In this document: positions 3,001 through 38,708 of the stretch, piece by piece | Numbering within the stretch: the first letter of the stretch is position 1 | Layout: each line of letters begins with the position of its first letter | Source of the DNA: a virus | DNA length: 64,000 nt | Direction: 5' to 3' (one strand) | Virus record (IMG/VR): IMGVR_UViG_3300037502_003888 | Location: 1-64,000 of that record | Program-made: the position numbers and the translations under genes | Notes under the pieces: generated by a model | What the model was told of the DNA's origin: nothing | The model's input: the letters and a program-made list of their open reading frames with translations, nothing else | Database searches by the model: none

Positions 3001-5730
3001 GCGCTGTCCTTCGGTGTTCATGCCCCAGAAATACAGCTTTTTGTCCAGCCCCAACGCATAGCTGAAGTACCAGCCTGCGCTGACAGCCGTGACACTGGTG
3101 TTCAGCAACACCGCCACTGGTGAACTGGTTTGAGTGTATGTGCCATCACCTAGCTGTCCGTAGCTGTTGGCACCCCAGGCATAGACTTTGCCATCGGGTT
3201 TGATGGCCAACATGTGATCCTGGCCTGATGACACTGATATCCAGCTTTCAAACACACTGGGAAGACCCGAGGTGTCAAAGTTGCCCAACTGTCCCTGTTC
3301 GTTGTTGCCCCAGCTGAACAGCCTACCGTCCTGGCGTATGGCCATGCTGAAACTGCGACCCGCTGCTATGGCTGTCCAGCTTGAAGTGCCGATCTGCACA
3401 GGACTGCTGCGGCTCGCAAGAGTTCCGTCGCCCAGCTGACCAAAATTGTTGCGTCCCCAGGCAAACAGCGTGCCGCCCTGGCGTATGGCCAACATGTGTC
3501 CTGACCCATTGATGGCCCGGCCCATGGCCACCTGGCTCCATGAACTGGTACCGATCTGCACCGGGGTGAGATATTCTGTGTAAGCCGAGCTACCATTGCC
3601 AGTCAAGCCGTCTTCGAACCGGCCCCAGACATAGAGCCCACCCGTGGTGGTGATACCGGCCGTGGAGCTGGGACCCACACTCAATGAGCTCCAGAGCTGG
3701 CTGCCTATCAGAATCGGGGACAGTTGCAGGGCATAGGTGTTGGCTCCGAGATATTCACCGTTGCCCCAACCATAGAGTCTCTGTGCCCGGATACCTATGC
3801 CAAAACTGTTGCCAATGCCTATGGCGCTCCAGCTGTCTATGCCATAGATCTGATTTCCCGAGCTGTCATAAAATCCCAGCTGACCACTGTTGTTGCGGCC
3901 CCAGGTAAACAGGCTGCCACCCTGGCGTATGGCCATGGCATGGCCATTGCCGGTGCTGATAGCGGACCATAGGCTGGTGCCCACCTGCGTGGGACTGCTG
4001 CGAGAGATGTTGTCGCCAAGCCCCAAAGGCACATTTAAGACGTCAGTGCCGGGGCCTCCCCAGGTAAACAACGCACCGTCGCTGCGTATGGCCGAAGAAA
4101 ATGAGCGGTTGGCCGATACTGCAGTCCAGCTACTGGCGCCGATCTGCACCGGACTATTATAAAATGCACTGTTATCGCTGGTGCCGTCCCCGATGACTCC
4201 GTTTTGCTGATATCCCCAGGCAAATAGGGTACCGCCCTGGCGTATGGCCAACACATGGCTGGGCCCAATGCTGACTGCAGTCCATGATGAAGTGCCCACT
4301 GGGGCCAGTGGCAGAGAGTAGCTGCCTGTGCCCCAGGAAGTGCCTCCGATAAACAGCCGGCCGTCGGATCTGATGGCCGCGGCCGCAAATGTAGACCAAG
4401 TAGACACAAAAGTCCAGCTCTGGGAAATGTTGCCCAGGGGCTGCCCCAGTTCGCCATATGAGTTTTGGCCGCCCCAGGCAAACAAGTTACCACCCTGACG
4501 TATGGCCAAGGTGTGATAAGTGCCAGCCGAGACCATGTTCCAGCTGCTGTTGCCGATCTGCACAGGACTGCTGCGATGTTCGATAGTCTGGTCTCCCAGC
4601 TGACCAAAAGTGTTGTAGCCCCAGCCAAACAAGGTTCCACCCTGGCGTATGGCAAACATGGTTTGGGCACCACCGCTTTTATAGGCCAGTGATACCCAAG
4701 AGCTGGTACCGATCTGTGTGGGGCTGCTGCGGCGAACCTGGTCGCCCAAGCCCAAAGCTCCCCAAAAGTTAAAGCCCCAGCCAAAAATCCTGCCATCCTG
4801 TCTCAAGGCAAGGAAATTACCGTCAGAGTTCGCTGTGACCTGAGTCCAGTTACTGGTACCCAACTGCACTGGACTGCTATAGGACAAACTGGTGTTACTG
4901 CTGCCCGTACCCAGTAGACCATTTTGATTCAGTCCCCAAGTAAACAGTCTGTTGTCTTTGATGCCGGCACCAGCCTGAAGGGTAAAAGCCACTGATGTCC
5001 AGCTGCCTGTGCCTATGTCAATGATTCCTGCTGTGTTCCCAGCTGGTACTTTGCCGCCGTATCCGTCGCCCCACACAAACAAAGTGCCGCCCTGGCGCAC
5101 CGCGGCTATGGTAGCAGTGCCAGCGTTCACAGCCGTCCATGAACTGGTGCCGATCTGCACAGGACTGCTGCGGTATGTGCCGGTGCTGTCGCCATTGCCT
5201 AGCTGCCCGTTGCTGTTGTTGCCCCAGGCAAACAGGGTGCCGCCTTGCCGTATGGCCGCGGCAAAATCTCCCATGCTGCTGACCGTGGTCCAGCTGGAAG
5301 TGCCGATCTGATAGGGACTGCTGCGACTGATCGTGGTGCCATCGCCCACTTGTCCACTGTCGTTGAGGCCCCAGGCAAACAGGGTGCCGCCCACACGCAC
5401 AGCATAGGTAGCCGATCTTCCAATAGACACCGCTAGCCAGCTGGATGTGCCGATCTGTACCGGACTGCCGCGTGTGGTCAAGGTACCATCGCCCAGCTGT
5501 CCGTCGCTATTCAATCCCCAGGTCCACAGTGTGCTGTCACTGCGTATGGCCACAGTGTGGCTAGCGGTATCTATGCTGGCCCAACTGAGAGTGGTGTAGT
5601 TGTTGGGCGGGAATCCGGTGCTGGTATACTGACCCAGCTGACCATACACACCAGTGCCCCAGGTAAACAGATAATTTTCGCCTACGGCGGCGCCACCGGC
5701 GCCCATGAGAGTGGTTTCAAATAATAGCAT
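1..5730 (-). CDS. Giant RCC1/BLIP-II-repeat beta-propeller protein, putative receptor-binding or fibre protein (3'-partial, at least 1910 codons)
   Basis: ATG at 5730 abuts the stop of the upstream ORF. Manual translation gives MLLFETTLMGAGGAAVGENYLFTWGTGVYGQLG..., then repeats of the type AIRQGGTLFAWGxNxxGQLGDGxxxxRSSPVQIGTSSW. The same frame still reads ...LQVGTSSWGLVGAGLYHSV at position 1. Absence from the ORF track is consistent with no in-window stop. Confidence 0.9.
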   Translation of the reverse strand, partial: MLLFETTLMGAGGAAVGENYLFTWGTGVYGQLGQYTSTGFPPNNYTTLSWASIDTASHTVAIRSDSTLWTWGLNSDGQLGDGTLTTRGSPVQIGTSSWLAVSIGRSATYAVRVGGTLFAWGLNDSGQVGDGTTISRSSPYQIGTSSWTTVSSMGDFAAAIRQGGTLFAWGNNSNGQLGNGDSTGTYRSSPVQIGTSSWTAVNAGTATIAAVRQGGTLFVWGDGYGGKVPAGNTAGIIDIGTGSWTSVAFTLQAGAGIKDNRLFTWGLNQNGLLGTGSSNTSLSYSSPVQLGTSNWTQVTANSDGNFLALRQDGRIFGWGFNFWGALGLGDQVRRSSPTQIGTSSWVSLAYKSGGAQTMFAIRQGGTLFGWGYNTFGQLGDQTIEHRSSPVQIGNSSWNMVSAGTYHTLAIRQGGNLFAWGGQNSYGELGQPLGNISQSWTFVSTWSTFAAAAIRSDGRLFIGGTSWGTGSYSLPLAPVGTSSWTAVSIGPSHVLAIRQGGTLFAWGYQQNGVIGDGTSDNSAFYNSPVQIGASSWTAVSANRSFSSAIRSDGALFTWGGPGTDVLNVPLGLGDNISRSSPTQVGTSLWSAISTGNGHAMAIRQGGSLFTWGRNNSGQLGFYDSSGNQIYGIDSWSAIGIGNSFGIGIRAQRLYGWGNGEYLGANTYALQLSPILIGSQLWSSLSVGPSSTAGITTTGGLYVWGRFEDGLTGNGSSAYTEYLTPVQIGTSSWSQVAMGRAINGSGHMLAIRQGGTLFAWGRNNFGQLGDGTLASRSSPVQIGTSSWTAIAAGRSFSMAIRQDGRLFSWGNNEQGQLGNFDTSGLPSVFESWISVSSGQDHMLAIKPDGKVYAWGANSYGQLGDGTYTQTSSPVAVLLNTSVTAVSAGWYFSYALGLDKKLYFWGMNTEGQRGNGTQSPFNYSPTPVQAFTSLINNDSWTAVTAGQGQVWAIRQDGQMWGVGANDTGNYPNYLWAVLGDGTRITRSSPVQIGAGVSWSQVAAAQSHAMALSTTGRLYTWGGNDQGQLGIFDSTGGIIDSVQKSWLAVVGGAYSTNAIDSQGKLYGWGWNYNHSLGLPNNYTNYPYPTEVTSFTGGTPASFTQVAAGIDSSMARDANGVQWGWGNDGSYQIGYNGSTITNPTSITSDIVEIAMGDNHSLRRFGNGQIQGTGVNTWGAVGNGNNFSPTYGWNSIGFESWTTIGAGQSHSMGIRNDGRLYTWGYNNSGQLGTNDLNNRSSPTQVGTSSWTQVAGGAAISAAIRQGGSLFTWGDNFNGSLGDGTRVNKSSPVLIGSSSWTAISKGGQRSTFYAIRQGGSLFTWGLSQSGELGLNNNASRSSPTQIGSSSWTFVGSGWYFAGGINSSTRILYMWGNNSNATLGIGNYTNTSSPVTVGIETPALTPLAIGNSSWTAIAAGQLYSMAVRQGGTLFTWGVNTYGELGLGDTIFRSSPIQVGTSSWTGVSSGGRTSYAIRQGGNGFGWGYNQQGSIGDGTTDDPSSGGRSSPVAIAGGGTNYAFISGSRWNYGFAAAKGNTGGVFTWGRNGPQLGRFADTIQPLPGLIGTTDVSSPVQIGTSSWTVISADTQSAAAIRQGGTLFTWGNNQYGQLGTNNITSYSSPVQIGTSSWSAVSMYESTTVAVRNLGTMFTWGRNDNFRLGNNEYTSRSSPSQVAGSAANLSFSVVSMGSRNAAGIQAVAGQLWVWGGTFLGTGDYNDYGQPGRQPQGQTLSPVQIGTSSWQIVAAGGSTSMAIRQGGTLFAWGFGTYGGLGDGDTQNRSSPVQIGSSSWIAVGPYGTYASSGITQGNNLFTWGYNFGGPLADGTQIDRSSPVSVGGGVQYTGIMRNPVGDGSWMGWIKNDGLAYYAGYPPSPFNDPLFGGQWRSSPTLIYGPPPTNSPLQVGTSSWGLVGAGLYHSV

Positions 5731-17126: not shown

Positions 17127-17903
17127 TTACGATGTGGCGTTCTGCACGATGGCCAGATCCAGCAAGTTCTGCTGACCGTTCTGTACGGTGCCGGTGTTGG
17201 CAGCACCAGTGGTACCCGACTTGATGGGCGTGCCTTCGTCCGAGAAGAAGTTGGCCAGGAAACGCTTGTCTGCCACCACTGAAGTGGCAGCATAGTTGTT
17301 GCCTCCGGCCCAGTCCAGGAGGAATCTGTTGGTGAGCTTGGAGATGTAAACTTCCGAGCTGGCGTCATCGGTATAGGCTATGCTCATGAGTCCGTTGCCA
17401 GGCGAGCCAGCATTGGTCAGCACGCACACACCCACGAGGTTCACGCGACCAGTGCCGGTGTTGGCGATGTTGCCAGTGGCTGTGAATATTGTGCCCACAG
17501 CAGCCGTACCAACTACGCCTACGCTGGCCCAATTGGTGTTGCCCACGGTAGTGATGCGATATGCATTGCCTATGACCACTGCTGTCCGAGAAGTAGCATC
17601 GCCCACTAGATACTTGTGCGCACCTTTTTGGCGCAGGATGTAACCCGCTGCCGAGCCTGCCGCTGATCCAGTGGCCAGGGTGATGTTGACTTCCACTACC
17701 ACTCTGGGAAACGTAGCAGATGTAGCCGTGCTACTTGCTCCACCCACTACACCATAGAACTGGTTGGTGTTGAATGTTGGGGGATACACAGGGTCTGTGA
17801 GTGATCCAAAGTTTGGATAACCTTGATCCACGGGCACTGCAGCGCCCGGAGAGTTGATGCCAGAGTTGGCTGAATATTTTTGTATCTTGAGAGGACGTCC
17901 CAT
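17127..17903 (-). CDS. Putative virion structural protein (258 aa), function unknown
   Basis: Start re-assigned to ATG 17903 (MGRPLKIQK) with AGGAG SD; own late promoter and terminator; Gly/Thr/Ala-rich. Confidence 0.7.
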   Translation of the reverse strand: MGRPLKIQKYSANSGINSPGAAVPVDQGYPNFGSLTDPVYPPTFNTNQFYGVVGGASSTATSATFPRVVVEVNITLATGSAAGSAAGYILRQKGAHKYLVGDATSRTAVVIGNAYRITTVGNTNWASVGVVGTAAVGTIFTATGNIANTGTGRVNLVGVCVLTNAGSPGNGLMSIAYTDDASSEVYISKLTNRFLLDWAGGNNYAATSVVADKRFLANFFSDEGTPIKSGTTGAANTGTVQNGQQNLLDLAIVQNATS

Positions 17904-17998
17904 TTGTTTTCTCCTATAAAGAAGTCCGATCCGGGTTCTAGCCGGTACGCGGTGGGTTAGCAGCCGCATAAGACGCAGTCGGCGTCAAAAGCTATTTA
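17904..17998 (-). promoter_or_regulatory. Late promoter TAAATA (17993-17998) and structured ~85-nt 5' leader
   Basis: Four consecutive short stems between promoter and ATG. Confidence 0.55.
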
Positions 17999-31818: not shown

Positions 31819-32658
31819 ATGAGTGAATCCAATCCGTTAAAACAGTATTTCCGCCAGCCCGCGATCTACATACGTTTGCCCAGCAACGGTCAGGGCTGGC
31901 AACCGGGATCGCTGGAGATGCCAGCCAACGGTGAGCTGCCCATATACCCCATGACCGCCATAGATGAGATCACTTATCGCACCCCAGATGCGCTGTTCAA
32001 CGGTCAGGCCGTGATCGACGTGATACAGAGCTGTGTGCCTGCTGTGAAAAACGCCTGGGCCGCACCACTCACAGACGTCAACACCCTGCTGGTGGCCATA
32101 CGCATAGCCAGTTACGGACACAACATGGAATTTGACACCCAGTGTCCCAAGTGCAACAACGAAGACAGCTATGATCTAGATCTCAGATCTGTGATGGACC
32201 AGCTGCGCAGTCCTGACTACAGTCGTACCATCACACACGGTGATCTAGAGATAAGATTCCGCAGCATGAACTATCGCGAGCAGAACGCCTCTAATCTTGA
32301 ACAGTTTGAAAATCAGCAGCTGGTACGGGCCATACCCGCTAGTGATCTGCCCGAAGAAGAAAAAGTGCAGCGCATGACCGAAGTCATGAAAAGCATCACG
32401 AAACTCACGGTGCGAGCCCTGACCAACAGCATTGACAGCATCCGCGCGCCCGATGCACAGGTCACTGACTCAGCGCACATCGAAGAGTTCCTCAACAACT
32501 GCGATCGCGCACTGTTTACTCGCATACGAGATCATGTGATCGAGCTGAGGTCCAGCACCGACATCAGGCCTGTGCCCATCAAGTGCACCAATTGCACGCA
32601 TGAATATCAGCAGGGCATCAATCTGGACATGGCCAATTTTTTCGCACCCGCCTCTTGA
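31819..32658 (+). CDS. gp26: Baseplate hub assembly / tail chaperone protein, gp26-like
   Basis: IRLPS, PMTAIDEI, LLVAIRIASYG, CPKC, CTNC, ends NFF. Confidence 0.75.
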   Translation: MSESNPLKQYFRQPAIYIRLPSNGQGWQPGSLEMPANGELPIYPMTAIDEITYRTPDALFNGQAVIDVIQSCVPAVKNAWAAPLTDVNTLLVAIRIASYGHNMEFDTQCPKCNNEDSYDLDLRSVMDQLRSPDYSRTITHGDLEIRFRSMNYREQNASNLEQFENQQLVRAIPASDLPEEEKVQRMTEVMKSITKLTVRALTNSIDSIRAPDAQVTDSAHIEEFLNNCDRALFTRIRDHVIELRSSTDIRPVPIKCTNCTHEYQQGINLDMANFFAPAS

Positions 32659-32873
32659 CGTTGGATGCCGACGAGATCGCGCGATACGTCGACGGCATGG
32701 ATCAAGAGGTCAAAAAAATCAGAGCCAATAATCTGCGCTTGGCCTGGTACATGCGTGGCGGAATAACCTATGATCAGGTCATGCAGTTGGGCTATCAAGA
32801 GCGACAGCTGATATCTGATCTCGCCAAAGACAACATCGAGACCACCAAGAAAACCAAGCTGCCTTGGTTCTAA
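32637..32873 (+). CDS. gp51-like small ORF, probably expressed as a -1 frameshift extension of the gp26-like protein
   Basis: The -1 frame is open from the T TTT TTC heptamer (32637-32643) to TAA 32873; the only upstream start is a TTG (32655) without an SD; WYMRGGITYDQVMQL...ER. Confidence 0.65.
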   Translation, partial: FFRTRLLTLDADEIARYVDGMDQEVKKIRANNLRLAWYMRGGITYDQVMQLGYQERQLISDLAKDNIETTKKTKLPWF

Positions 32874-33270
32874 TCACCTACTATCCGAGATGTGCTTCGC
32901 ACATCTGTGTCTTTCGCTTGCGCTCAGACACAATTTCTTTCTGAAGTCATCATCCAGATTTAATGGTCATACTTGCCCGTAAGCCGGGCAAGTATGCATC
33001 ATCCGAGTTTGAACGATCACCTGCGTCAGGAGATTGCCGTGTCTCTGCGGCGCGGAGGCGGTTGTGCTGTACCCCCTACTCCAGCCTTGACTCACAACGG
33101 AACCGACAGTACCCCACGCAAGCGAAGCGGGTCGGCCAGGGTTGTATCTTTTTCACAGTTGCCCTGATCTTTTAGGCCTAAGTTAGCTTATCCTTTGACG
33201 CCCAAGTTCTGACAACGGGCGGTTCCGTTGCCTCAATGGGGCTGGGCCAAGACGCCCAGCACAGAGTCTA
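32874..33270 (-). ncRNA. Putative large structured non-coding RNA (or structured DNA element), family unassigned
   Basis: The largest intergenic gap in the window; at least 9 stems, an 11-bp long-range helix and a 10-bp crossing helix with G-U pairs that form only on the minus strand. Confidence 0.6.
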
Positions 33271-33789
33271 TCACCGGCGGCAGAGACGCCGCACAGTGTC
33301 CTGATTGAGCTCCCAGAACAAGGCGTGATCCATGATCATCCAGTGTCCGTTGAGCCCCGATGCGTAATTGAAATGCCTGGTGAATTGTAGTGGGGAAGTA
33401 TTGGGCTGTGCTTGTACTGCTACAAAAGTGCCTTTGCGATTGAACTTCATGAAGATGATATTGAAATCGCCGGGATCTGCAACGTCGACACACTGCTGGA
33501 TCCAGCCATCTAATATCCGAGAGCTGCCTGTGAAAAGCTGATGAAAGGGGAAGTCTTTATAGGATTTACATTCTGCGTTGAAACGTGGGAAATTTTCTCC
33601 GGGTATGATATCGCCCTTGAACGTGCGTATCTGTCCTTCGTGCAAGAACTCTTTGCGATGCGTGTTTTTACCACCGATATAAGCGCCTGATCCTGGAGCC
33701 CGCATGAATTTCTCACCATAGAGATCAGTGAGGAAATCTGCGATGTGCCGCTCGAAACTATTGCCTTTGGCTTTGCTGGGACTGGTCAT
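33271..33789 (-). CDS. Holliday junction resolvase (Hjc-like PD-(D/E)XK)
   Basis: SKAKGNSFERHIA, GDII, ECKSY. Confidence 0.8.
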   Translation of the reverse strand: MTSPSKAKGNSFERHIADFLTDLYGEKFMRAPGSGAYIGGKNTHRKEFLHEGQIRTFKGDIIPGENFPRFNAECKSYKDFPFHQLFTGSSRILDGWIQQCVDVADPGDFNIIFMKFNRKGTFVAVQAQPNTSPLQFTRHFNYASGLNGHWMIMDHALFWELNQDTVRRLCRR

Positions 33790-34818
33790 TTACCATTCTG
33801 TGGTGTGTTGTACATCGCGCAAACGTTCTGGTGTGCATTTGGTACTGCATTCTTGGCTATCAAACCGGAGAAAATCCGTGTGCCAGAATTCATCACTGAT
33901 GATTTCCGGGAAAGATCTCTGCCAGAGATTGAATCTATCAGCAGCCAGCTTCTGCCACTGATGATTGTGTATATATCTGTTGGCAGTCCAACAGCAAGGA
34001 TAAAACTCACCACGGCTGTTGACAAACACACCTTTGTTGCCGATCATGCACAGCGCAGAATAGCGCTGTTGCTGCTGCAATTGCTGTGCGCGCTGCAGAT
34101 ACAGCAGTTGCATCTCGTGCCCCGGGCGAGCTTTCTGGCTCAGCACAGTGATCTCCCGTTCAAATCTATGTCCCTGGGCCCGGTATTGGCTCTGTGTGGG
34201 CTGCAGCGCATCATTGGTGCCATAGACCTCGGGATAGTGGGATCCAAATTTGGTGCTCTTGGTGAGCTGGAATTGGTCCAGGCCCAGACGTTGGGCTATG
34301 TCGCACATATCGGGAATGTGCTGCTCGTTGAAAGCAAATGCGATACTAGCCCACACTGTGTAGGTGGTTTGATTGTGAGCCAGGAACGTCTGTATACCTT
34401 GATGTATGCTGTGCCAGTCCGAGTTCACGCGATACTGGCGATTGCTGTCATGATCCCAACCATCTATGCTCCAGTGTATCTCGTCGTTGTGATCTAAGGT
34501 GCATGCCAGCTCGCGCCAAAACTCCTGGGGCCGGTGGCTGCCATTGGTGACTATCACTAGATGCAGCCGGGGATTCACGCTCTTGATCCATGCACAGATA
34601 GCCACGAGATCCCGGCAGTAAATGGGATCTCCGTCGTTGCCGCACAGGGTGATGCGGCGTATGTCTCGCACCACATCGGCTGTGATCTGCTGCTGGAAAA
34701 AATCTAGGTTCAGTTGTTGGTTCAACAGGGTCTGGGGAACTTCGGCCCTGGGACATCTCGGACAGCGCAATGCACAGATGCTGCTGGGTTCGATGTGCCA
34801 GTGGTCCCAGACGATCAT
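33790..34818 (-). CDS. Radical SAM protein with twitch/SPASM-like C-terminus
   Basis: CALRCPRC (CxxxCxxC), GNDGDP, TNGS, SIDG, GEFYPCCW, C-terminal CSTKC. Confidence 0.88.
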   Translation of the reverse strand: MIVWDHWHIEPSSICALRCPRCPRAEVPQTLLNQQLNLDFFQQQITADVVRDIRRITLCGNDGDPIYCRDLVAICAWIKSVNPRLHLVIVTNGSHRPQEFWRELACTLDHNDEIHWSIDGWDHDSNRQYRVNSDWHSIHQGIQTFLAHNQTTYTVWASIAFAFNEQHIPDMCDIAQRLGLDQFQLTKSTKFGSHYPEVYGTNDALQPTQSQYRAQGHRFEREITVLSQKARPGHEMQLLYLQRAQQLQQQQRYSALCMIGNKGVFVNSRGEFYPCCWTANRYIHNHQWQKLAADRFNLWQRSFPEIISDEFWHTDFLRFDSQECSTKCTPERLRDVQHTTEW

Positions 34819-36578
34819 GCGCGATCTACATCCGTGTTATAGGACGTGAATCCATTTTCTTTTACCACTCGTAGGATGTTTTCCACACGTCCTGCCAGTT
34901 CGTCCCTGTGGCTTACCAGCCACACTGACTTTCCCCGCTCGCGGCTCATCTGTTTTAACAAGGACAGGCAGCTTTCCATGCCCGCAGTGTCCATGCCAGA
35001 ATCAATGAGTTCGTCGATGAACAGGAGATTGATGGGCGAATACAGGCTCTCCCATACATCCCGGAACGCCCAGCTCATGCTGAGTATGAGTCGATTGCGT
35101 TCACCGCGGCTGAGATTGTCAAAATCTAGATCTCGACCCAGTTCCTGTATCTCCACGGTGAGATCTGGCTGGAAAGTCACTGAATGTGGCAGTCCAATGC
35201 GATCCAGATACCATGTGAGACGGCTGTTGAGATAGCTGAGATTCTGTTCTATGATCTTTTTGCGCACAAAACTATCTTTGCTGGTCAGGAGCTTCAAGAG
35301 GAAATCCTGGTGATCATGCAGCCGTGTGAGGCGATTGATCTCATCGTAGCTCACGTCCTGCAGAGCTTGATTCTGCATCTCTGTGATCTGTTCGGTATAG
35401 GGATCAGACTCTCCCTGCCGATTGGTGAGATCTCGGCGCAGGCTGTCTAGGCTGTTGCGATGATTTAGAGCCTGTTCGAGACTGTCATAGAACACCACAG
35501 GTGCAGCGCCCAATTCTCCGAGATCATCGATCTCGTTGAGGTGTTCGATCCTCTGGGTGTCGTTGGTCAGGAGCTGCAGTGAGATTTCTTGGAGGTTCTG
35601 TGTCTTTTCCTGCAGTATCTGATCTTGTTTGCTGTCATGCAGTTCCTGACCACAGGCATGACAGCGATGTTCACGCAAGGTAGCGATGTCACGCTCGAGC
35701 TTGACGCGATCTCGATTGAGTTTGGCATCGTCTTGATCTATCTGCCGGATCCACAGCTGATGATCCTCGATCTGTTTTCTGCGCAGGTGATAGGCTTCGA
35801 GATCACGATGCGCCTGCACTTCTTGATCGATGTTGATGTGTTCCAAGGCTTCTATGGCTGTTTGCAGTGTGGTACAATCGTCGTTGTGTTTTTTCTGCCA
35901 CAGCTCTTGGCGACGGCAGAGGTTGTTGATCTGTTCTTGTATGCGTTGATTGGCTTCTTGCACGGCCTTGATGCGTAATTCTTCGCGGGTCATGCCATCG
36001 CGAGTGATTTTGTTGAGTTCTTTGATTTTCTCTGCACGTTCACTCAGCAAGGTTATGCCCAGGAGTTGCTCGATGATCACACGCTGGTCATTGGTCTTGA
36101 GACTGAGAAAAGGTTCGGTATAGGTGTTCAGGGCCATGATGTGTCGCATCATGTCATGGCTCATGCCCAGGGTGGTTTCTATGGCTGCCTGTGTTTCTCG
36201 GCTGTCACCTTGGCTGTCATCTGTCGCGGCTTGTTCTTCGTTGTTGACATAGAATTTCAAGACATTGGGCTTGCGGCCGCGCTCGATTCGATATTGCCTG
36301 TCATTGACTTCAAAATCCACCGACACCAACATGTTACGACCATTGGTCTTGTTGATGAGATTGTCGCGCCGGATGTTGGTCAGGGCTTGCCCATACAGTG
36401 CATAGCTCAAAGCATTGATTATGGTGGTCTTGCCGGTGCCGTTGCGGCTGCCGTCTCCGCCGAGGTCTAGATTTTCACCCAGGACCAAGGTGAGATCTTG
36501 CCGATCAAAGTTGATACCTTGCGTGGCGTTGCCCACGCTCATGAAGTTACGCACTGAGATGTTGTTGATTCGTATCAT
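34815..36578 (-). CDS. gp46: SbcC/Rad50-like recombination ATPase
   Basis: Walker A NGTGKTT, zinc hook CHAC, signature LSRGE, Walker B LFIDE, SH. Confidence 0.95.
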   Translation of the reverse strand: MIRINNISVRNFMSVGNATQGINFDRQDLTLVLGENLDLGGDGSRNGTGKTTIINALSYALYGQALTNIRRDNLINKTNGRNMLVSVDFEVNDRQYRIERGRKPNVLKFYVNNEEQAATDDSQGDSRETQAAIETTLGMSHDMMRHIMALNTYTEPFLSLKTNDQRVIIEQLLGITLLSERAEKIKELNKITRDGMTREELRIKAVQEANQRIQEQINNLCRRQELWQKKHNDDCTTLQTAIEALEHINIDQEVQAHRDLEAYHLRRKQIEDHQLWIRQIDQDDAKLNRDRVKLERDIATLREHRCHACGQELHDSKQDQILQEKTQNLQEISLQLLTNDTQRIEHLNEIDDLGELGAAPVVFYDSLEQALNHRNSLDSLRRDLTNRQGESDPYTEQITEMQNQALQDVSYDEINRLTRLHDHQDFLLKLLTSKDSFVRKKIIEQNLSYLNSRLTWYLDRIGLPHSVTFQPDLTVEIQELGRDLDFDNLSRGERNRLILSMSWAFRDVWESLYSPINLLFIDELIDSGMDTAGMESCLSLLKQMSRERGKSVWLVSHRDELAGRVENILRVVKENGFTSYNTDVDRA

Positions 36579-37144: not shown

Positions 37145-37698
37145 GCCCAGTGCCAGCTCACAGCACCGCGGTGCAATAGATCATGCTCGGCCAGGCAACA
37201 CAGCGTGAACAAACGATGCTGTCTGCGCCGGTGATTCAAGCACACATACAACGGTCCGGGTTGCCAGGATTCAGGCAACATGGCCTGATCCAGCTGTGAT
37301 CCCGCGGGAAAATCATACCACAGCGTGGTCTCGATCACTGTGAGACAATGATCGCTGTTGCATATGGTGCGGGCCAAGTGCTGCAGATGATCCGTGATGC
37401 CGTGATGGTTGGTGAGGAAGATCAGCTTTTCCAGGGGTGTGTTCCAGGCAGCACAACTGCGGAAGAAATTGTACACAGTGTTGCCGGTGATGCTGGTATG
37501 GTCGCAGTAGTCGGTTTCGTGGAACAAGATCACCGCACGCTCATCCTCAGCATATTGTTCGTCGGCTAGATCATTCATGGCGCGGCTGAGATCATGTGGT
37601 GCCAGATCTACTTCCATGAGATCCACCACATGCCGTATGCGATAGCGCTGCCGTATCAAATCCAAGACTTCGGGCTGTATGCAACCATCCCACATCAT
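37141..37698 (-). CDS. N-terminal half of the same glycosyltransferase-like family
   Basis: YVCLNHRRRQHR matches VSCLNRFPRLHR of 19179-20357; ATGA overlaps at both ends. Confidence 0.55.
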   Translation of the reverse strand: MMWDGCIQPEVLDLIRQRYRIRHVVDLMEVDLAPHDLSRAMNDLADEQYAEDERAVILFHETDYCDHTSITGNTVYNFFRSCAAWNTPLEKLIFLTNHHGITDHLQHLARTICNSDHCLTVIETTLWYDFPAGSQLDQAMLPESWQPGPLYVCLNHRRRQHRLFTLCCLAEHDLLHRGAVSWHWA

Positions 37699-38708
37699 AG
37701 CGTTTGATAGATGCTGAGCAGCAGTTTTGGATCGTAATGGTCGCTCTGTATCTTGGTGATCTGGTCAGTGACGATCTGGTCCACGCTTTCAAATTTCACA
37801 TGCCCCGGCGCTAGATCCTCTTCCACACCCGCTCTGCGCCCCGGCACCAGGCTCATCTCTCTGAGATTGTGTTGTCCCACGAAAGTCTCTTTGATGAAGT
37901 TGGCTTCTTCGTAGGAGATTTCTATGTCGAGATTTACGCGTACATGCATCTTGGGACGCAGGAGCTCGGCACCGTGGTCGATCAGCGTAGACAGATTCCA
38001 GACATTGTATAGTGGCTGATCGGGCCAGGCATGATACTGCGGTTCTTCGCCCCACTCCAGGATCACGCAGCCTCGTTCAGCATCGCCGGCATCGGCGAAG
38101 TTGTGCGGGAACGCATTGCCGATGTAGGTGATGTTTTTCTTGGTCTGGCGTTTGTGGAAGTGTCCAGTGAACACATGTTCAAACCCCTGGAAATCTTCGC
38201 GATGAACTTCGCCATGATCCGGCATCTCTACCATGGCGTTCATGAGATAGCCGGGCAGCTCAAAATGTCCAAACATGTATCGACCCTCGAGTCGTGCAAT
38301 GCGCCGGTGGTCATCAGCTACCAACCACGGTGCCACCACGGCATCGCCTTCGATGAGCCAGTCGTTGCAGATGCGCACACGGGAGAGATGTCGCGCCCAC
38401 TCCACGCTCTGGATGTCACGACGGTCACGATAGTAGAGATCGTGATTGCCGGGTATAAACAGCACCTGATCAAAGTTGTCATTGAGATGCTCCAGGGCTC
38501 GCAGGCTGTAGTTCAGGGTCACGATGTTGATGCTGCTGCGATGATTGTGCCAGTCACCTAGGAACATGGCTGTTTCACAGCCTTGATCGCGTGCCAGGGC
38601 CGTGGCCCACTGCACAAAGGCCAGGCAGTCTTCGTTGTGGGCCTGGCTGTTGCTCTTGAGACCAAAGTGTATGTCCGTGAAAATCATGGCACGGCGAAAC
38701 AGATTCAT
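37695..38708 (-). CDS. gp47: SbcD/Mre11-like nuclease
   Basis: TDIHFG, LGDW, GNHD, GHFE, GHFH metallophosphoesterase motifs. Confidence 0.95.
   Translation of the reverse strand: MNLFRRAMIFTDIHFGLKSNSQAHNEDCLAFVQWATALARDQGCETAMFLGDWHNHRSSINIVTLNYSLRALEHLNDNFDQVLFIPGNHDLYYRDRRDIQSVEWARHLSRVRICNDWLIEGDAVVAPWLVADDHRRIARLEGRYMFGHFELPGYLMNAMVEMPDHGEVHREDFQGFEHVFTGHFHKRQTKKNITYIGNAFPHNFADAGDAERGCVILEWGEEPQYHAWPDQPLYNVWNLSTLIDHGAELLRPKMHVRVNLDIEISYEEANFIKETFVGQHNLREMSLVPGRRAGVEEDLAPGHVKFESVDQIVTDQITKIQSDHYDPKLLLSIYQTL

What the first reader, a model, noticed from the sequence alone, without database searches (positions are those of the whole stretch)
32874..33270. Large, pseudoknotted non-coding element, candidate novel phage ncRNA
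Seen (plus coordinates): stems 33241-33247/33254-33260; long-range CAACGGAACCG 33095-33105/33220-33230 enclosing 33199-33203/33217-33221, 33137-33141/33162-33166 and 33103-33107/33131-33135; GGGGGU/GCCUCC (33071-33076/33054-33059); a perfect 12-bp stem 32968-32996; terminal stems 32906-32932 and 32888-32906. Minus-strand UCGCUUGCGU (33125-33116) can pair with ACGCAGGUGA (33026-33017), 10 bp with 2 G-U, crossing the long-range helix to form a pseudoknot. The G-U pairs would be A-C mismatches on the plus strand, which favours a minus-strand RNA co-transcribed directly after the resolvase at the end of the gp55/47/46 operon. I see no tRNA, tmRNA, RNase P, group I P7 or group II domain V hallmarks. 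Inference: an unclassified ornate RNA, such as a ribozyme, nuclease partner or replication-priming RNA.
Basis: partly seen in the sequence, partly recalled or inferred. Interest (0 to 1): 0.85.

Follow-up and report, generated by a model that had tools for sequence, protein, structure and literature searches.

The report
Twin-box folded RNA of giant phages
The 397-base gap behind a small nuclease gene of this uncultured giant T4-like lake phage encodes a real, doubly knotted non-coding RNA; it carries the same 7-letter word twice, the two copies always change together, and its job is unknown.

Summary
The finding holds. Window 32888-33270, minus strand, is a conserved structured RNA, not a gene and not a chance fold.

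- **Family:** I collected 93 non-redundant full-length relatives (37-72% identical) from uncultured phage contigs.
- **Strand:** G-U outnumbers A-C 385 to 12 in the core helices, which fixes the minus strand.
- **Context:** The RNA starts about 10 nt after the last ORF of the gp46-(radical SAM)-nuclease operon. That nuclease is either PDDEXK or GIY-YIG, never both.
- **Twin boxes:** Two 7-nt words (33004-32998 and 32955-32949) are identical in 90 of 93 members across 11 variants. No third partner was found in cis.
- **Known families:** No Rfam family matches. However, the flanks of the published Polynucleobacter-1 (RF01718) seed sequences carry the same twin boxes and 3' hairpins, so this RNA is a divergent sister of that orphan RNA.
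- **Function:** Unknown. My best guess is a trans-acting scaffold that shows two identical words to one reader.

This scan has already reported the family on many other genomes.

The parts
32888..33270 (-). Whole element. The structured ncRNA core is about 33270-32946. It is followed by an A-rich linker and two 3' hairpins.
   Evidence: nhmmer and HMM hits over the full length in more than 120 IMG/VR loci. Fold z = -4.75. Covariation.
33197..33268 (-). P0: 5' leader GAC (33268-33266) pairs with GUC (33199-33197) and closes the 5' domain.
   Evidence: Mutual information and pair counts G-C 76 / A-U 11 / C-G 5 and A-U 82 / G-C 11. Helix 1.
33241..33260 (-). P1 hairpin (33260-33254 / 33247-33241).
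   Evidence: All 7 pairs show compensatory change. Per-sequence fold median z = -3.5, with every member below -1.
33201..33240 (-). P2: CCCA (33240-33237) with UGGG (33204-33201). It encloses the invariant UUGAG and hairpin P3 (33232-33211).
   Evidence: 368 Watson-Crick and 4 G-U cells of 372, with C-G to U-A, G-C and A-U changes. P3 inner pairs covary.
33137..33166 (-). P6: outer helix 33166-33162 / 33141-33137 and inner helix 33157-33154 / 33146-33143, around the conserved GUGAAAAAGAUACAAC.
   Evidence: The best-covarying pair of the RNA has G-C 36, U-A 32, A-U 11, C-G 11.
33103..33135 (-). P7 stem (33135-33131 / 33107-33103). Its apical part is the 5' strand of pseudoknot A.
   Evidence: Pairs 144-170 and 145-169 (element numbering) covary. 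Helix 7.
33017..33125 (-).
   Evidence: Cognate against non-cognate duplex energies give p = 1e-23, with many fully compensated variants. 8 of 10 pairs show change on both sides.
33061..33098 (-). Pseudoknot B: GUUGUG (33098-33093) pairs with CACAAC (33066-33061), which lies in the loop of P8.
   Evidence: 489 Watson-Crick, 65 G-U and 0 A-C cells. Pair types include A-U 75 / U-A 13 / G-C 3 and U-G 62 / C-G 14 / G-C 13.
33054..33076 (-). P8: GGGGGU / GCCUCC. It is nearly invariant and has two conserved G-U pairs.
   Evidence: 379 Watson-Crick, 179 G-U and 0 A-C cells.
33029..33082 (-). P9: GGAG (33082-33079) with CUCC (33032-33029). It encloses P8 and a variable hairpin (33050-33037).
   Evidence: Pair types U-A 46 / A-U 28 / G-C 11. 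The variable hairpin folds with median z = -2.9.
32998..33004 (-). Twin box 1 (GGAUGAU here), preceded by the constant ACUC. In most relatives it sits in a loop closed by a short stem.
32968..32996 (-). P10: stable hairpin between the two boxes, 12 bp in this window.
   Evidence: Per-sequence fold median z = -4.3, with every member below -1.
32949..32955 (-). Twin box 2 (GGAUGAU here), preceded by the constant AUCU.
   Evidence: The 7-mers are identical in 90 of 93 members and the central pentamers in 93 of 93. Mutual information is 0.8-0.98 only with the same position of box 1.
32907..32931 (-). P11 hairpin with the conserved apex GAGCG-NN-AGCGAA. An A-rich run precedes it, which reads as a U-rich tail on the plus strand.
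   Evidence: Covariation. No strand bias: for P11 and P12 together, G-U 24 against A-C 28.
32888..32906 (.). P12 hairpin with a C-GNA-G triloop. It is probably a two-way terminator hairpin shared with the convergent baseplate operon.
   Evidence: Four pair types at several positions. A plus-strand terminator-like call at 32888-32906.
33271..33789 (-). Context: the upstream ORF, a PDDEXK_15 (resolvase-like) nuclease. The RNA begins at its stop codon.
   Evidence: Pfam PF24608, E = 1e-24. Synteny gp46 > (radical SAM) > nuclease > RNA.

Best explanation
**Shown.** Window 33270 to about 32888, minus strand, is a member of a large family of structured non-coding RNAs found in uncultured giant T4-like phages.
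- The fold has a 5' domain (P0-P3), a core (P6-P9) locked by two pseudoknots, a hairpin (P10) flanked by two identical 7-nt words, and two 3' hairpins.
- It is a divergent sister of the full-length RNA whose 5' part is catalogued as Polynucleobacter-1.

**Inferred.** The RNA is made as the 3' tail of the gp47-gp46-(radical SAM)-nuclease operon transcript. P11 and P12 end it and protect its 3' end.

**Inferred, about 35-40% likely.** The RNA acts in trans as a rigid scaffold. It presents the two identical words, each behind a constant pyrimidine handle (ACUC or AUCU), to one partner that reads them by sequence. That partner would be either a dimeric or duplicated protein, or two copies of a nucleic-acid site. 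The partner is not the neighbouring nuclease.

That the element is a real minus-strand RNA I hold at about 0.95. The confidence given below is for the mechanism.
For: - **Family size:** 93 non-redundant members, all in one orientation.
- **Covariation:** 89.7% of cells paired against 74.7% in shuffles (0 of 500 reached it) and about 40% with slid partners. 48 of 74 pairs show compensatory change.
- **Pseudoknots:**
- **Strand:** G-U 385 against A-C 12 in the core helices.
- **Not coding:** only 4 of 93 members have an open frame over the window's 70-aa ORF region, and region lengths show no multiple-of-three pattern.
- **Co-transcription:** the upstream ORF is on the same strand in 99 of 100 loci, the median gap is 10 nt, and there is no shared promoter word or TATAAATA.
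- **Twin words:** identical in 90 of 93 members across 11 variants, with about 32 parsimony changes mirrored in both boxes. Mutual information links each box only to the other box. A further variant, AGCGAAA, appears in both boxes of L269 and in the Polynucleobacter-1 flanks.
- **Accessibility:** box 1 lies in a loop closed by a covarying short stem and box 2 in an unpaired linker.
- **Not nuclease-specific:** the same words occur behind both nuclease folds.
- **Expression hint:** a freshwater metatranscriptome holds a 151-nt contig about 98% identical to 33067-33211.
Against: - No partner has been found. The complement of the box is not enriched within 8 kb of the RNA (52 cognate against 41.6 per non-cognate word). 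It is also not enriched across a complete 347-kb member genome.
- A protein reader would have had to change specificity many times.
- A base-pairing reader would tolerate A/G differences between the boxes through G-U pairs, yet the boxes still match.
- Expression rests on one short contig from an RNA library, with no strand information and possible DNA carry-over.
- No transcript ends are known.
- The tree used to count coupled changes may overcount if the box-P10-box module is exchanged by recombination.
Confidence: 0.38

Rival explanations
1. RNA-only machine. The fold is a ribozyme or self-processing RNA, and the twin boxes are two equivalent reaction sites, for example cleavage and ligation sites that excise or circularise the P10 segment.
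For: The RNA has the size and knotted complexity typical of ribozymes. The two identical sites flank a stable hairpin at a roughly fixed distance. The RNA does not depend on which protein gene is its neighbour.
Against: No known ribozyme model matches. No member lacking the inter-box segment was seen. A catalytic core reading both sites should covary with them, but no cis partner exists.
Confidence: 0.12
2. Homo-oligomeric RNA assembly of the GOLLD/ROOL kind. The RNA builds a multimeric particle, and the repeated words and GNRA-like loops are inter-subunit contacts.
For: It is a large ornate phage RNA with no dedicated protein gene. GOLLD, ROOL and OLE form RNA-only oligomers (PMC12286853, listed). 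The box 2 region AUCURGAU is self-complementary if G-U pairs are allowed (read directly from the sequence).
Against: There is no sequence or structure match to GOLLD or ROOL. Symmetric contacts predict complementarity or palindromes, not position-by-position identity between two different sites.
Confidence: 0.1
3. Cis-acting 3' UTR. The fold only stabilises or terminates the operon mRNA, or shields it from the convergent transcript.
For: It always lies at the operon end, facing a convergent operon. P11 and P12 show no strand bias and look like a two-way terminator.
Against: About 320 nt with two pseudoknots, invariant single-stranded motifs and coupled twin words is far more than a terminator or an exonuclease block needs. 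The core stays the same while the upstream gene changes.
Confidence: 0.12
4. RNA partner or guide of the neighbouring nuclease, forming a nuclease-RNA system.
For: In 82 of 100 loci the RNA lies directly behind a small stand-alone nuclease. The twin words look programmable.
Against: The nuclease is either PDDEXK_15 or a SegE-like GIY-YIG. These are unrelated folds that replace each other at the same place. In 16 of 100 loci the ORF directly upstream is a different, uncharacterised protein, and in several of these it lies between the nuclease and the RNA. The same box words occur with both folds. Cultured phages with close homologues of either nuclease lack the RNA.
Confidence: 0.07
5. DNA-level element, such as a replication origin with iteron-like direct repeats or a folded single-stranded DNA signal.
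For: Iterons also evolve in concert. The element sits between the replication/recombination module and the structural module.
Against: The strong one-strand G-U bias and long-range pseudoknot covariation point to a folded single strand of defined polarity. There are only two short repeats. A matching contig sits in an RNA library. Single-stranded DNA cannot be excluded by covariation alone.
Confidence: 0.05

Closest known systems
Polynucleobacter-1 RNA motif (Rfam RF01718; Weinberg et al. 2010, PMC2864571)
   Same: - It is an orphan RNA from freshwater and marine metagenomes, found downstream of a small gene with possible homology to a cyanophage gene (supplement text).
- In the authors' own alignment file, the 3' flanks of the seed sequences carry ACUC-AGCGAAA, then a hairpin, then AUCU-AGCGAAA. 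They also carry an AACCGCC helix like P8, a GAGCG..AGCGAA hairpin like P11 and a final hairpin like P12.
- One listed hit has CCGUUG, GGAGGUACCG and AAUCUGGAUGAA, as in this window's type.
- An IMG/VR locus with AGCGAAA boxes (L269) is matched by my family profile over positions 98-418 at E = 7e-37.
   Different: - The Rfam model has 141 positions and covers the 5' part only. It gives no match at E <= 10 in this phage record or in the window's region.
- Four Rfam scans of 48 related loci listed no RF01718 match at their thresholds, which ran from gathering score to E <= 1.
- The 5' domain here differs in sequence.
- The published motif describes neither the twin boxes, the pseudoknots nor the full length.
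GOLLD (RF01998) and ROOL (RF03087), large ornate RNAs of phages and prophages
   Same: They are large, highly structured, phage-borne RNAs of unknown function with no dedicated protein partner.
   Different: No sequence or structure match. Those RNAs are larger, usually lie near tRNA genes and form RNA-only oligomers (PMC12286853). None of this has been tested here.
Lambda-type nut boxB hairpins read by N protein (established knowledge, an analogy only)
   Same: Two copies of a short GNNRA-type loop word are the same within a phage but differ between phages, because one phage-specific reader binds both. Here the central pentamers (GAUGA, GAUAA, GCGAA, GCUGA, GACGA) fit GNNRA and are identical in 93 of 93 members.
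   Different: boxB has a proper 5-bp stem and lies at the start of operons on two different transcripts. Here the stems would be only 2 bp, both copies are in one RNA at an operon end, and no N-like protein is known.
Archaeal C/D box sRNAs (weak Rfam hits sR11 and Plant_U3)
   Same: The box RGAUGAU resembles the C box RUGAUGA and occurs twice, like C and C'.
   Different: Scores are far below threshold: 17.2 against 39 bits, and 16.6 against 80 bits. There is no conserved CUGA D box. Variants such as GAUAA, GCGAA and UCGGA break the tandem G-A pairs of a kink-turn.

Membership tests
Twin-box phage RNA family (this scan's working name; uncatalogued) | A homologous core with P6, the CCGUUG pseudoknot into the P8 loop (GGGGGUAC...AACCGCCUCC), P9 and pseudoknot A. 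| tested here: met
   Profile hits over the full length in more than 120 loci, with covariation for each helix.
Twin-box phage RNA family (this scan's working name; uncatalogued) | Two identical 7-nt words behind ACUC and AUCU, flanking a stable hairpin. | tested here: met
   In the window, GGAUGAU lies at 33004-32998 and at 32955-32949. Across the family the words match in 90 of 93 members.
Polynucleobacter-1 (RF01718) | A score at or above the Rfam gathering threshold (37 bits) against the 141-position model. | tested here: not met
   No match at E <= 10 in the whole phage record or in the window's region. Four Rfam scans of 48 related loci listed no RF01718 match at their thresholds, from gathering score to E <= 1.
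Polynucleobacter-1 (RF01718) | The same full-length architecture downstream of the catalogued 5' part: a P8-like helix, twin boxes, P11 and P12. | tested here: met
   Read from the flanks in the authors' Stockholm file. L269, which has AGCGAAA boxes, links to my profile at E = 7e-37. The seed sequences themselves could not be fed to the tools.
GOLLD / ROOL / OLE / HEARO (omega RNA) / group I and II introns / RNase P / tmRNA / 6S | A match to the family covariance model. | tested here: not met
   cmscan of all 4227 Rfam families at E <= 10 over 32600-33500 returned only four chance-level hits, none from these families. ARAGORN found nothing.
C/D box sRNA | C (RUGAUGA) and D (CUGA) boxes forming kink-turns, with guides upstream of D and D'. 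| tested here: not met
   Sub-threshold hits only. No conserved CUGA. Box variants are incompatible with tandem G-A pairs.
Type III toxin-antitoxin RNA (ToxI-like) | Tandem whole-unit repeats of about 34-45 nt next to an endoribonuclease toxin. | tested here: not met
   Only 7-10 nt are repeated. The alignment shows no whole-unit tandem repeat. The neighbouring genes are PDDEXK or GIY-YIG nucleases.
Template-jumping reverse-transcriptase RNA (DRT2-like) | An associated reverse transcriptase. | tested here: not met
   No RVT_1 in a complete 347-kb member genome with terminal repeats, nor in four large partial genomes, nor in this record.
Protein-coding gene | A conserved open frame with codon-like substitution and insertion/deletion patterns. 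| tested here: not met
   4 of 93 members are open over the homologous region. Region lengths mod 3 split 38/35/20. No Pfam or PHROG hit for the 70-aa ORF.

The most novel reading that the evidence does not exclude
The twin words are a programmable specificity element. The RNA uses two identical 7-nt read-outs behind constant handles to recognise a nucleic-acid target twice, for example both arms of an inverted repeat or two copies of a site. Alternatively, their identity is restored by a copying or template-switch step. Either would be an undescribed RNA-based mechanism in giant phages.
Probability: 0.15. Interest if true: 0.95.

Novelty: new variant of a known kind. Interest (0 to 1): 0.72.

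Why it matters
Large, intricately folded RNAs with no known function are rare, and they have repeatedly led to new biochemistry. This one is common in uncultured giant lake and marine phages. It is fixed at the end of the recombination-nuclease operon. It also shows an unusual evolutionary signal: two words that stay identical rather than complementary through about 30 changes.

The work extends a 2010 orphan motif (Polynucleobacter-1) into an RNA of about 400 nt with two pseudoknots. It gives that RNA a phage origin and a concrete handle for experiments, namely the twin boxes.

Tried and rejected
**Known families**
- Rfam at gathering threshold and at E <= 10 on the window, and at various thresholds on 48 related loci, gave nothing. 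RF01718 on the whole record also gave nothing.

**Cultured phages**
- GenBank phage DNA searches with the window's RNA, its 3-kb surroundings and a relative's RNA found no match.
- Cultured phages with homologues of the PDDEXK nuclease (SCTP-2, PA5oct) or the GIY-YIG nuclease (Melnitz, S-SRM01, ACP17) have no gap and no profile hit.

**Cellular genomes**
- A genome-collection pattern scan gave 44 hits, about the number I estimate by chance for 17 fixed bases. Only two were true members.

**Structure**
- A long-range helix 33199-33196/32969-32966 proposed by RNAalifold was rejected. The true partner of 33199-33197 is the 5' leader.
- Antiparallel pairing of box 1 with box 2 was rejected, because the flanks are not complementary.

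**Twin boxes**
- A third cis partner was sought by mutual information and none was found.
- The complement of the box is not enriched nearby or across a genome, and I found no inverted-repeat targets.
- The gene 60-type translational bypass and mini-ORF ideas were rejected, because in-frame stops occur and the frames are inconsistent.
- A CsrA-type GGA site was rejected, because more than half of the members have AGA.

**Other**
- Reverse transcriptase, RtcB and RNA ligase were not found in this 29%-complete record, which is uninformative.
- No shared promoter was found upstream.
- The sequencing-run search gave one small-share RNA run kept as contigs only. Parts of the stretch without cover say nothing.
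- The sister class may have its own twin words (GGCAA..), but 11 sequences are too few and the copies do not always match.

Full report
**Setting.** The window is a 64-kb piece of a 100.6-kb IMG/VR virus record, estimated 29% complete, which implies a giant phage. The finding is the 397-bp gap between two convergent gene sets.
- On the plus strand, a T4-type baseplate hub gene (31819-32658) and a 72-aa ORF end at 32873.
- On the minus strand lie gp47-like SbcD (37695-38708), gp46-like SbcC (34815-36578), a radical SAM/SPASM protein (33790-34818) and a 172-aa PDDEXK_15 resolvase-like nuclease (33271-33789), which ends at 33271.

**The observation.**
- The gap folds much better than shuffled sequence: z = -4.75 on the minus strand and -3.39 on the plus strand.
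- ARAGORN finds no tRNA or tmRNA.
- Rfam finds nothing in the gap, at gathering threshold or at E <= 10. The only window hit is a freshwater-2 RNA at 17901-17987.

**Relatives.**
- Searching IMG/VR with the nuclease gave 80 loci. The gap sequence is recognisably conserved in 56 of them, always downstream and in the same orientation. In some loci an extra gene of about 340 aa lies between nuclease and RNA.
- After removing near-duplicates I had 93 full-length members, 37-72% identical to the window with a median of 55%.
- No GenBank phage matches at the DNA level.

**Structure.** Coordinates are window, minus strand.
- P0: 33268-33266 / 33199-33197
- P1: 33260-33254 / 33247-33241
- P2: 33240-33237 / 33204-33201
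- P3: hairpin 33232-33211
- P6: 33166-33162 / 33141-33137, and 33157-33154 / 33146-33143
- P7: 33135-33131 / 33107-33103
- Pseudoknot B: 33098-33093 / 33066-33061, inside the loop of P8
- P8: 33076-33071 / 33059-33054
- P9: 33082-33079 / 33032-33029
- P10: 32996-32985 / 32979-32968
- P11: 32931-32926 / 32912-32907
- P12: 32906-32899 / 32895-32888

On a 23-sequence alignment the tool count gives 89.7% of cells paired. Shuffles give 74.7% (0 of 500 as high), and sliding the partners gives about 40%. 48 of 74 pairs show change on both sides. For pseudoknot A, cognate strands pair far better than strands taken from different members (p = 1e-23), with many fully compensated variants.

- The 11-bp helix 33095-33105/33220-33230 loses out to P7, pseudoknot B and the local hairpin P3, all of which covary.
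- The stem 33199-33203/33217-33221 competes with P2 and P0.

**Strand and coding.**
- In the core helices there are 2782 Watson-Crick, 385 G-U and only 12 A-C cells, so the folded strand is the window's minus strand.
- P11 and P12 differ, with G-U 24 against A-C 28. The A-rich run before P11 reads as a U-tract on the plus strand, and the terminator scan calls 32888-32906 on the plus strand. I read these two hairpins as a two-way terminator shared with the baseplate operon. They probably also serve as the RNA's 3' end.
- The region is not coding. Only 4 of 93 members are open over the window's 70-aa ORF region, lengths show no multiple-of-three pattern, and the ORF has no family match.

**Context.**
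- In 99 of 100 loci the nearest upstream ORF is on the RNA's strand and ends a median of 10 nt before the conserved leader. In 85 of 98 loci the downstream gene converges.
- No promoter word is shared upstream, so co-transcription with the operon is the simplest reading.
- The gene order is gp46 > (radical SAM) > nuclease > RNA. The nuclease is either PDDEXK_15 or a 142-152-aa SegE-like GIY-YIG protein, never both. Two unrelated folds replace each other at one position, most simply as analogous junction-resolving enzymes.
- Cultured phages with homologues of either nuclease have no such gap and no profile hit.
- Of 44 pattern hits in cellular genomes, a number I estimate is about what chance gives, only two are true members. 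Both are on large contigs of one Haliscomenobacter MAG.

**The twin boxes.** Behind the constant ACUC and AUCU lie two 7-nt words. In the window both are GGAUGAU, at 33004-32998 and 32955-32949, on either side of P10.
- They are identical in 90 of 93 members across 11 variants. The central pentamers are identical in 93 of 93.
- On a tree built without the boxes, about 32 changes of the word are mirrored in both copies. Recombination of the module could inflate this count.
- Each variable box position shares high mutual information (0.8-0.98) only with the same position of the other box. There is no third partner in cis.
- Box 1 lies in a loop closed by a short covarying stem (p = 8e-8). The flanks of box 2 do not pair.
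- Each box could also form a 2-bp mini-hairpin with a GNNRA-type pentaloop.
- The complement of the word is not enriched within 8 kb. It is also not enriched in a complete 347-kb member genome, and I saw no inverted-repeat targets there.
- That complete genome has no reverse transcriptase.
- The same words occur behind both nuclease folds.

Identity rather than complementarity is what one expects if one reader must recognise both sites, or if one site is copied from the other. The data cannot decide between these.

**Relation to known RNAs.** Earlier notes of this scan describe the same 'twin-box' RNA on many other genomes, and several name Polynucleobacter-1 (RF01718) as the closest known family. 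I tested this.
- The Rfam model does not score on this record or on 48 related loci.
- The original paper says the motif lies downstream of a gene with possible homology to a cyanophage gene, and that its 3' half is not always detected.
- The authors' alignment file shows, in the 3' flanks of the seed sequences, ACUC-AGCGAAA, a hairpin, AUCU-AGCGAAA, an AACCGCC helix, a GAGCG..AGCGAA hairpin and a final hairpin. One listed hit has CCGUUG, GGAGGUACCG and AAUCUGGAUGAA, as in the window's type.
- An IMG/VR locus with AGCGAAA boxes is matched by my profile over positions 98-418 at E = 7e-37.

So the window's RNA is a divergent sister of the full-length Polynucleobacter-1 RNA. The catalogue holds only the 5' part of one branch. 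I found no paper describing the full RNA, its pseudoknots or the twin boxes.

**Expression.** One freshwater metatranscriptome run, kept as contigs, holds a 151-nt contig with 2 mismatches and 1 gap against 33067-33211. This is a weak hint with no strand and no ends.

**Verdict.** The element is real (about 0.95) and lies on the minus strand. It belongs to a widespread phage RNA family that is almost uncatalogued.
- Function is unknown. I rate a trans-acting scaffold that shows two identical words to one sequence-reading partner as most likely, at about 0.38.
- The rivals are a ribozyme or self-processing RNA, an RNA-only assembly, a cis 3' UTR, a nuclease partner and a DNA-level element.
- The scan has reported this family before on other DNA.

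Noticed in passing
window 17901-17987 (-): The only Rfam match in the window is a freshwater-2 RNA (RF02980) at 68.9 bits, E = 2e-8. Another first-reader note on this window reads the same place as a structured 5' leader.
   Followed up: no
L049, L050, L054, L060, L066, L070, L072-L074, L078 (about 3490-4100 in each locus): At the same place behind the PDDEXK nuclease these phages carry a sister RNA of about 430 nt. It has the same 5' domain (P1, then CUCC-UUGAG...GGAG in place of CCCA...UGGG) and the same two 3' hairpins, but a different core. It has no Rfam match. A GGCAA word occurs on both sides of its central hairpin, but the copies do not always match.
   Followed up: partly
window 33271-33789 (-) and loci L082 onward: The PDDEXK_15 nuclease and a minimal SegE-like GIY-YIG nuclease replace each other at one syntenic position after gp46 and the radical SAM gene. 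They are never found together.
   Followed up: partly
L220:468-884 and L224:4003-4411: The only true family members in the collection of cellular genomes lie on two large contigs (148 and 183 kb) of one Haliscomenobacter MAG. These are probably phage contigs binned with it, which may hint at the host.
   Followed up: no
window 33790-34818 (-): A radical SAM/SPASM gene sits between gp46 and the nuclease here and in about half of the related loci.
   Followed up: no
L116:1854-2483, L126:5747-6607: In some relatives, homing-endonuclease-like genes (NUMOD3 alone, or HNH plus NUMOD3) lie just downstream of the RNA.
   Followed up: no
L003, L005, L036 (insert between P8 and the 3' strand of P9): A 40-nt expansion hairpin is inserted at the variable hairpin that corresponds to window 33050-33037.
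   Followed up: no
window 32888-32906: The P12 loop is a C-GNA-G triloop (GCGAAGC here). The loop type is conserved across the family while the stem covaries.
   Followed up: no
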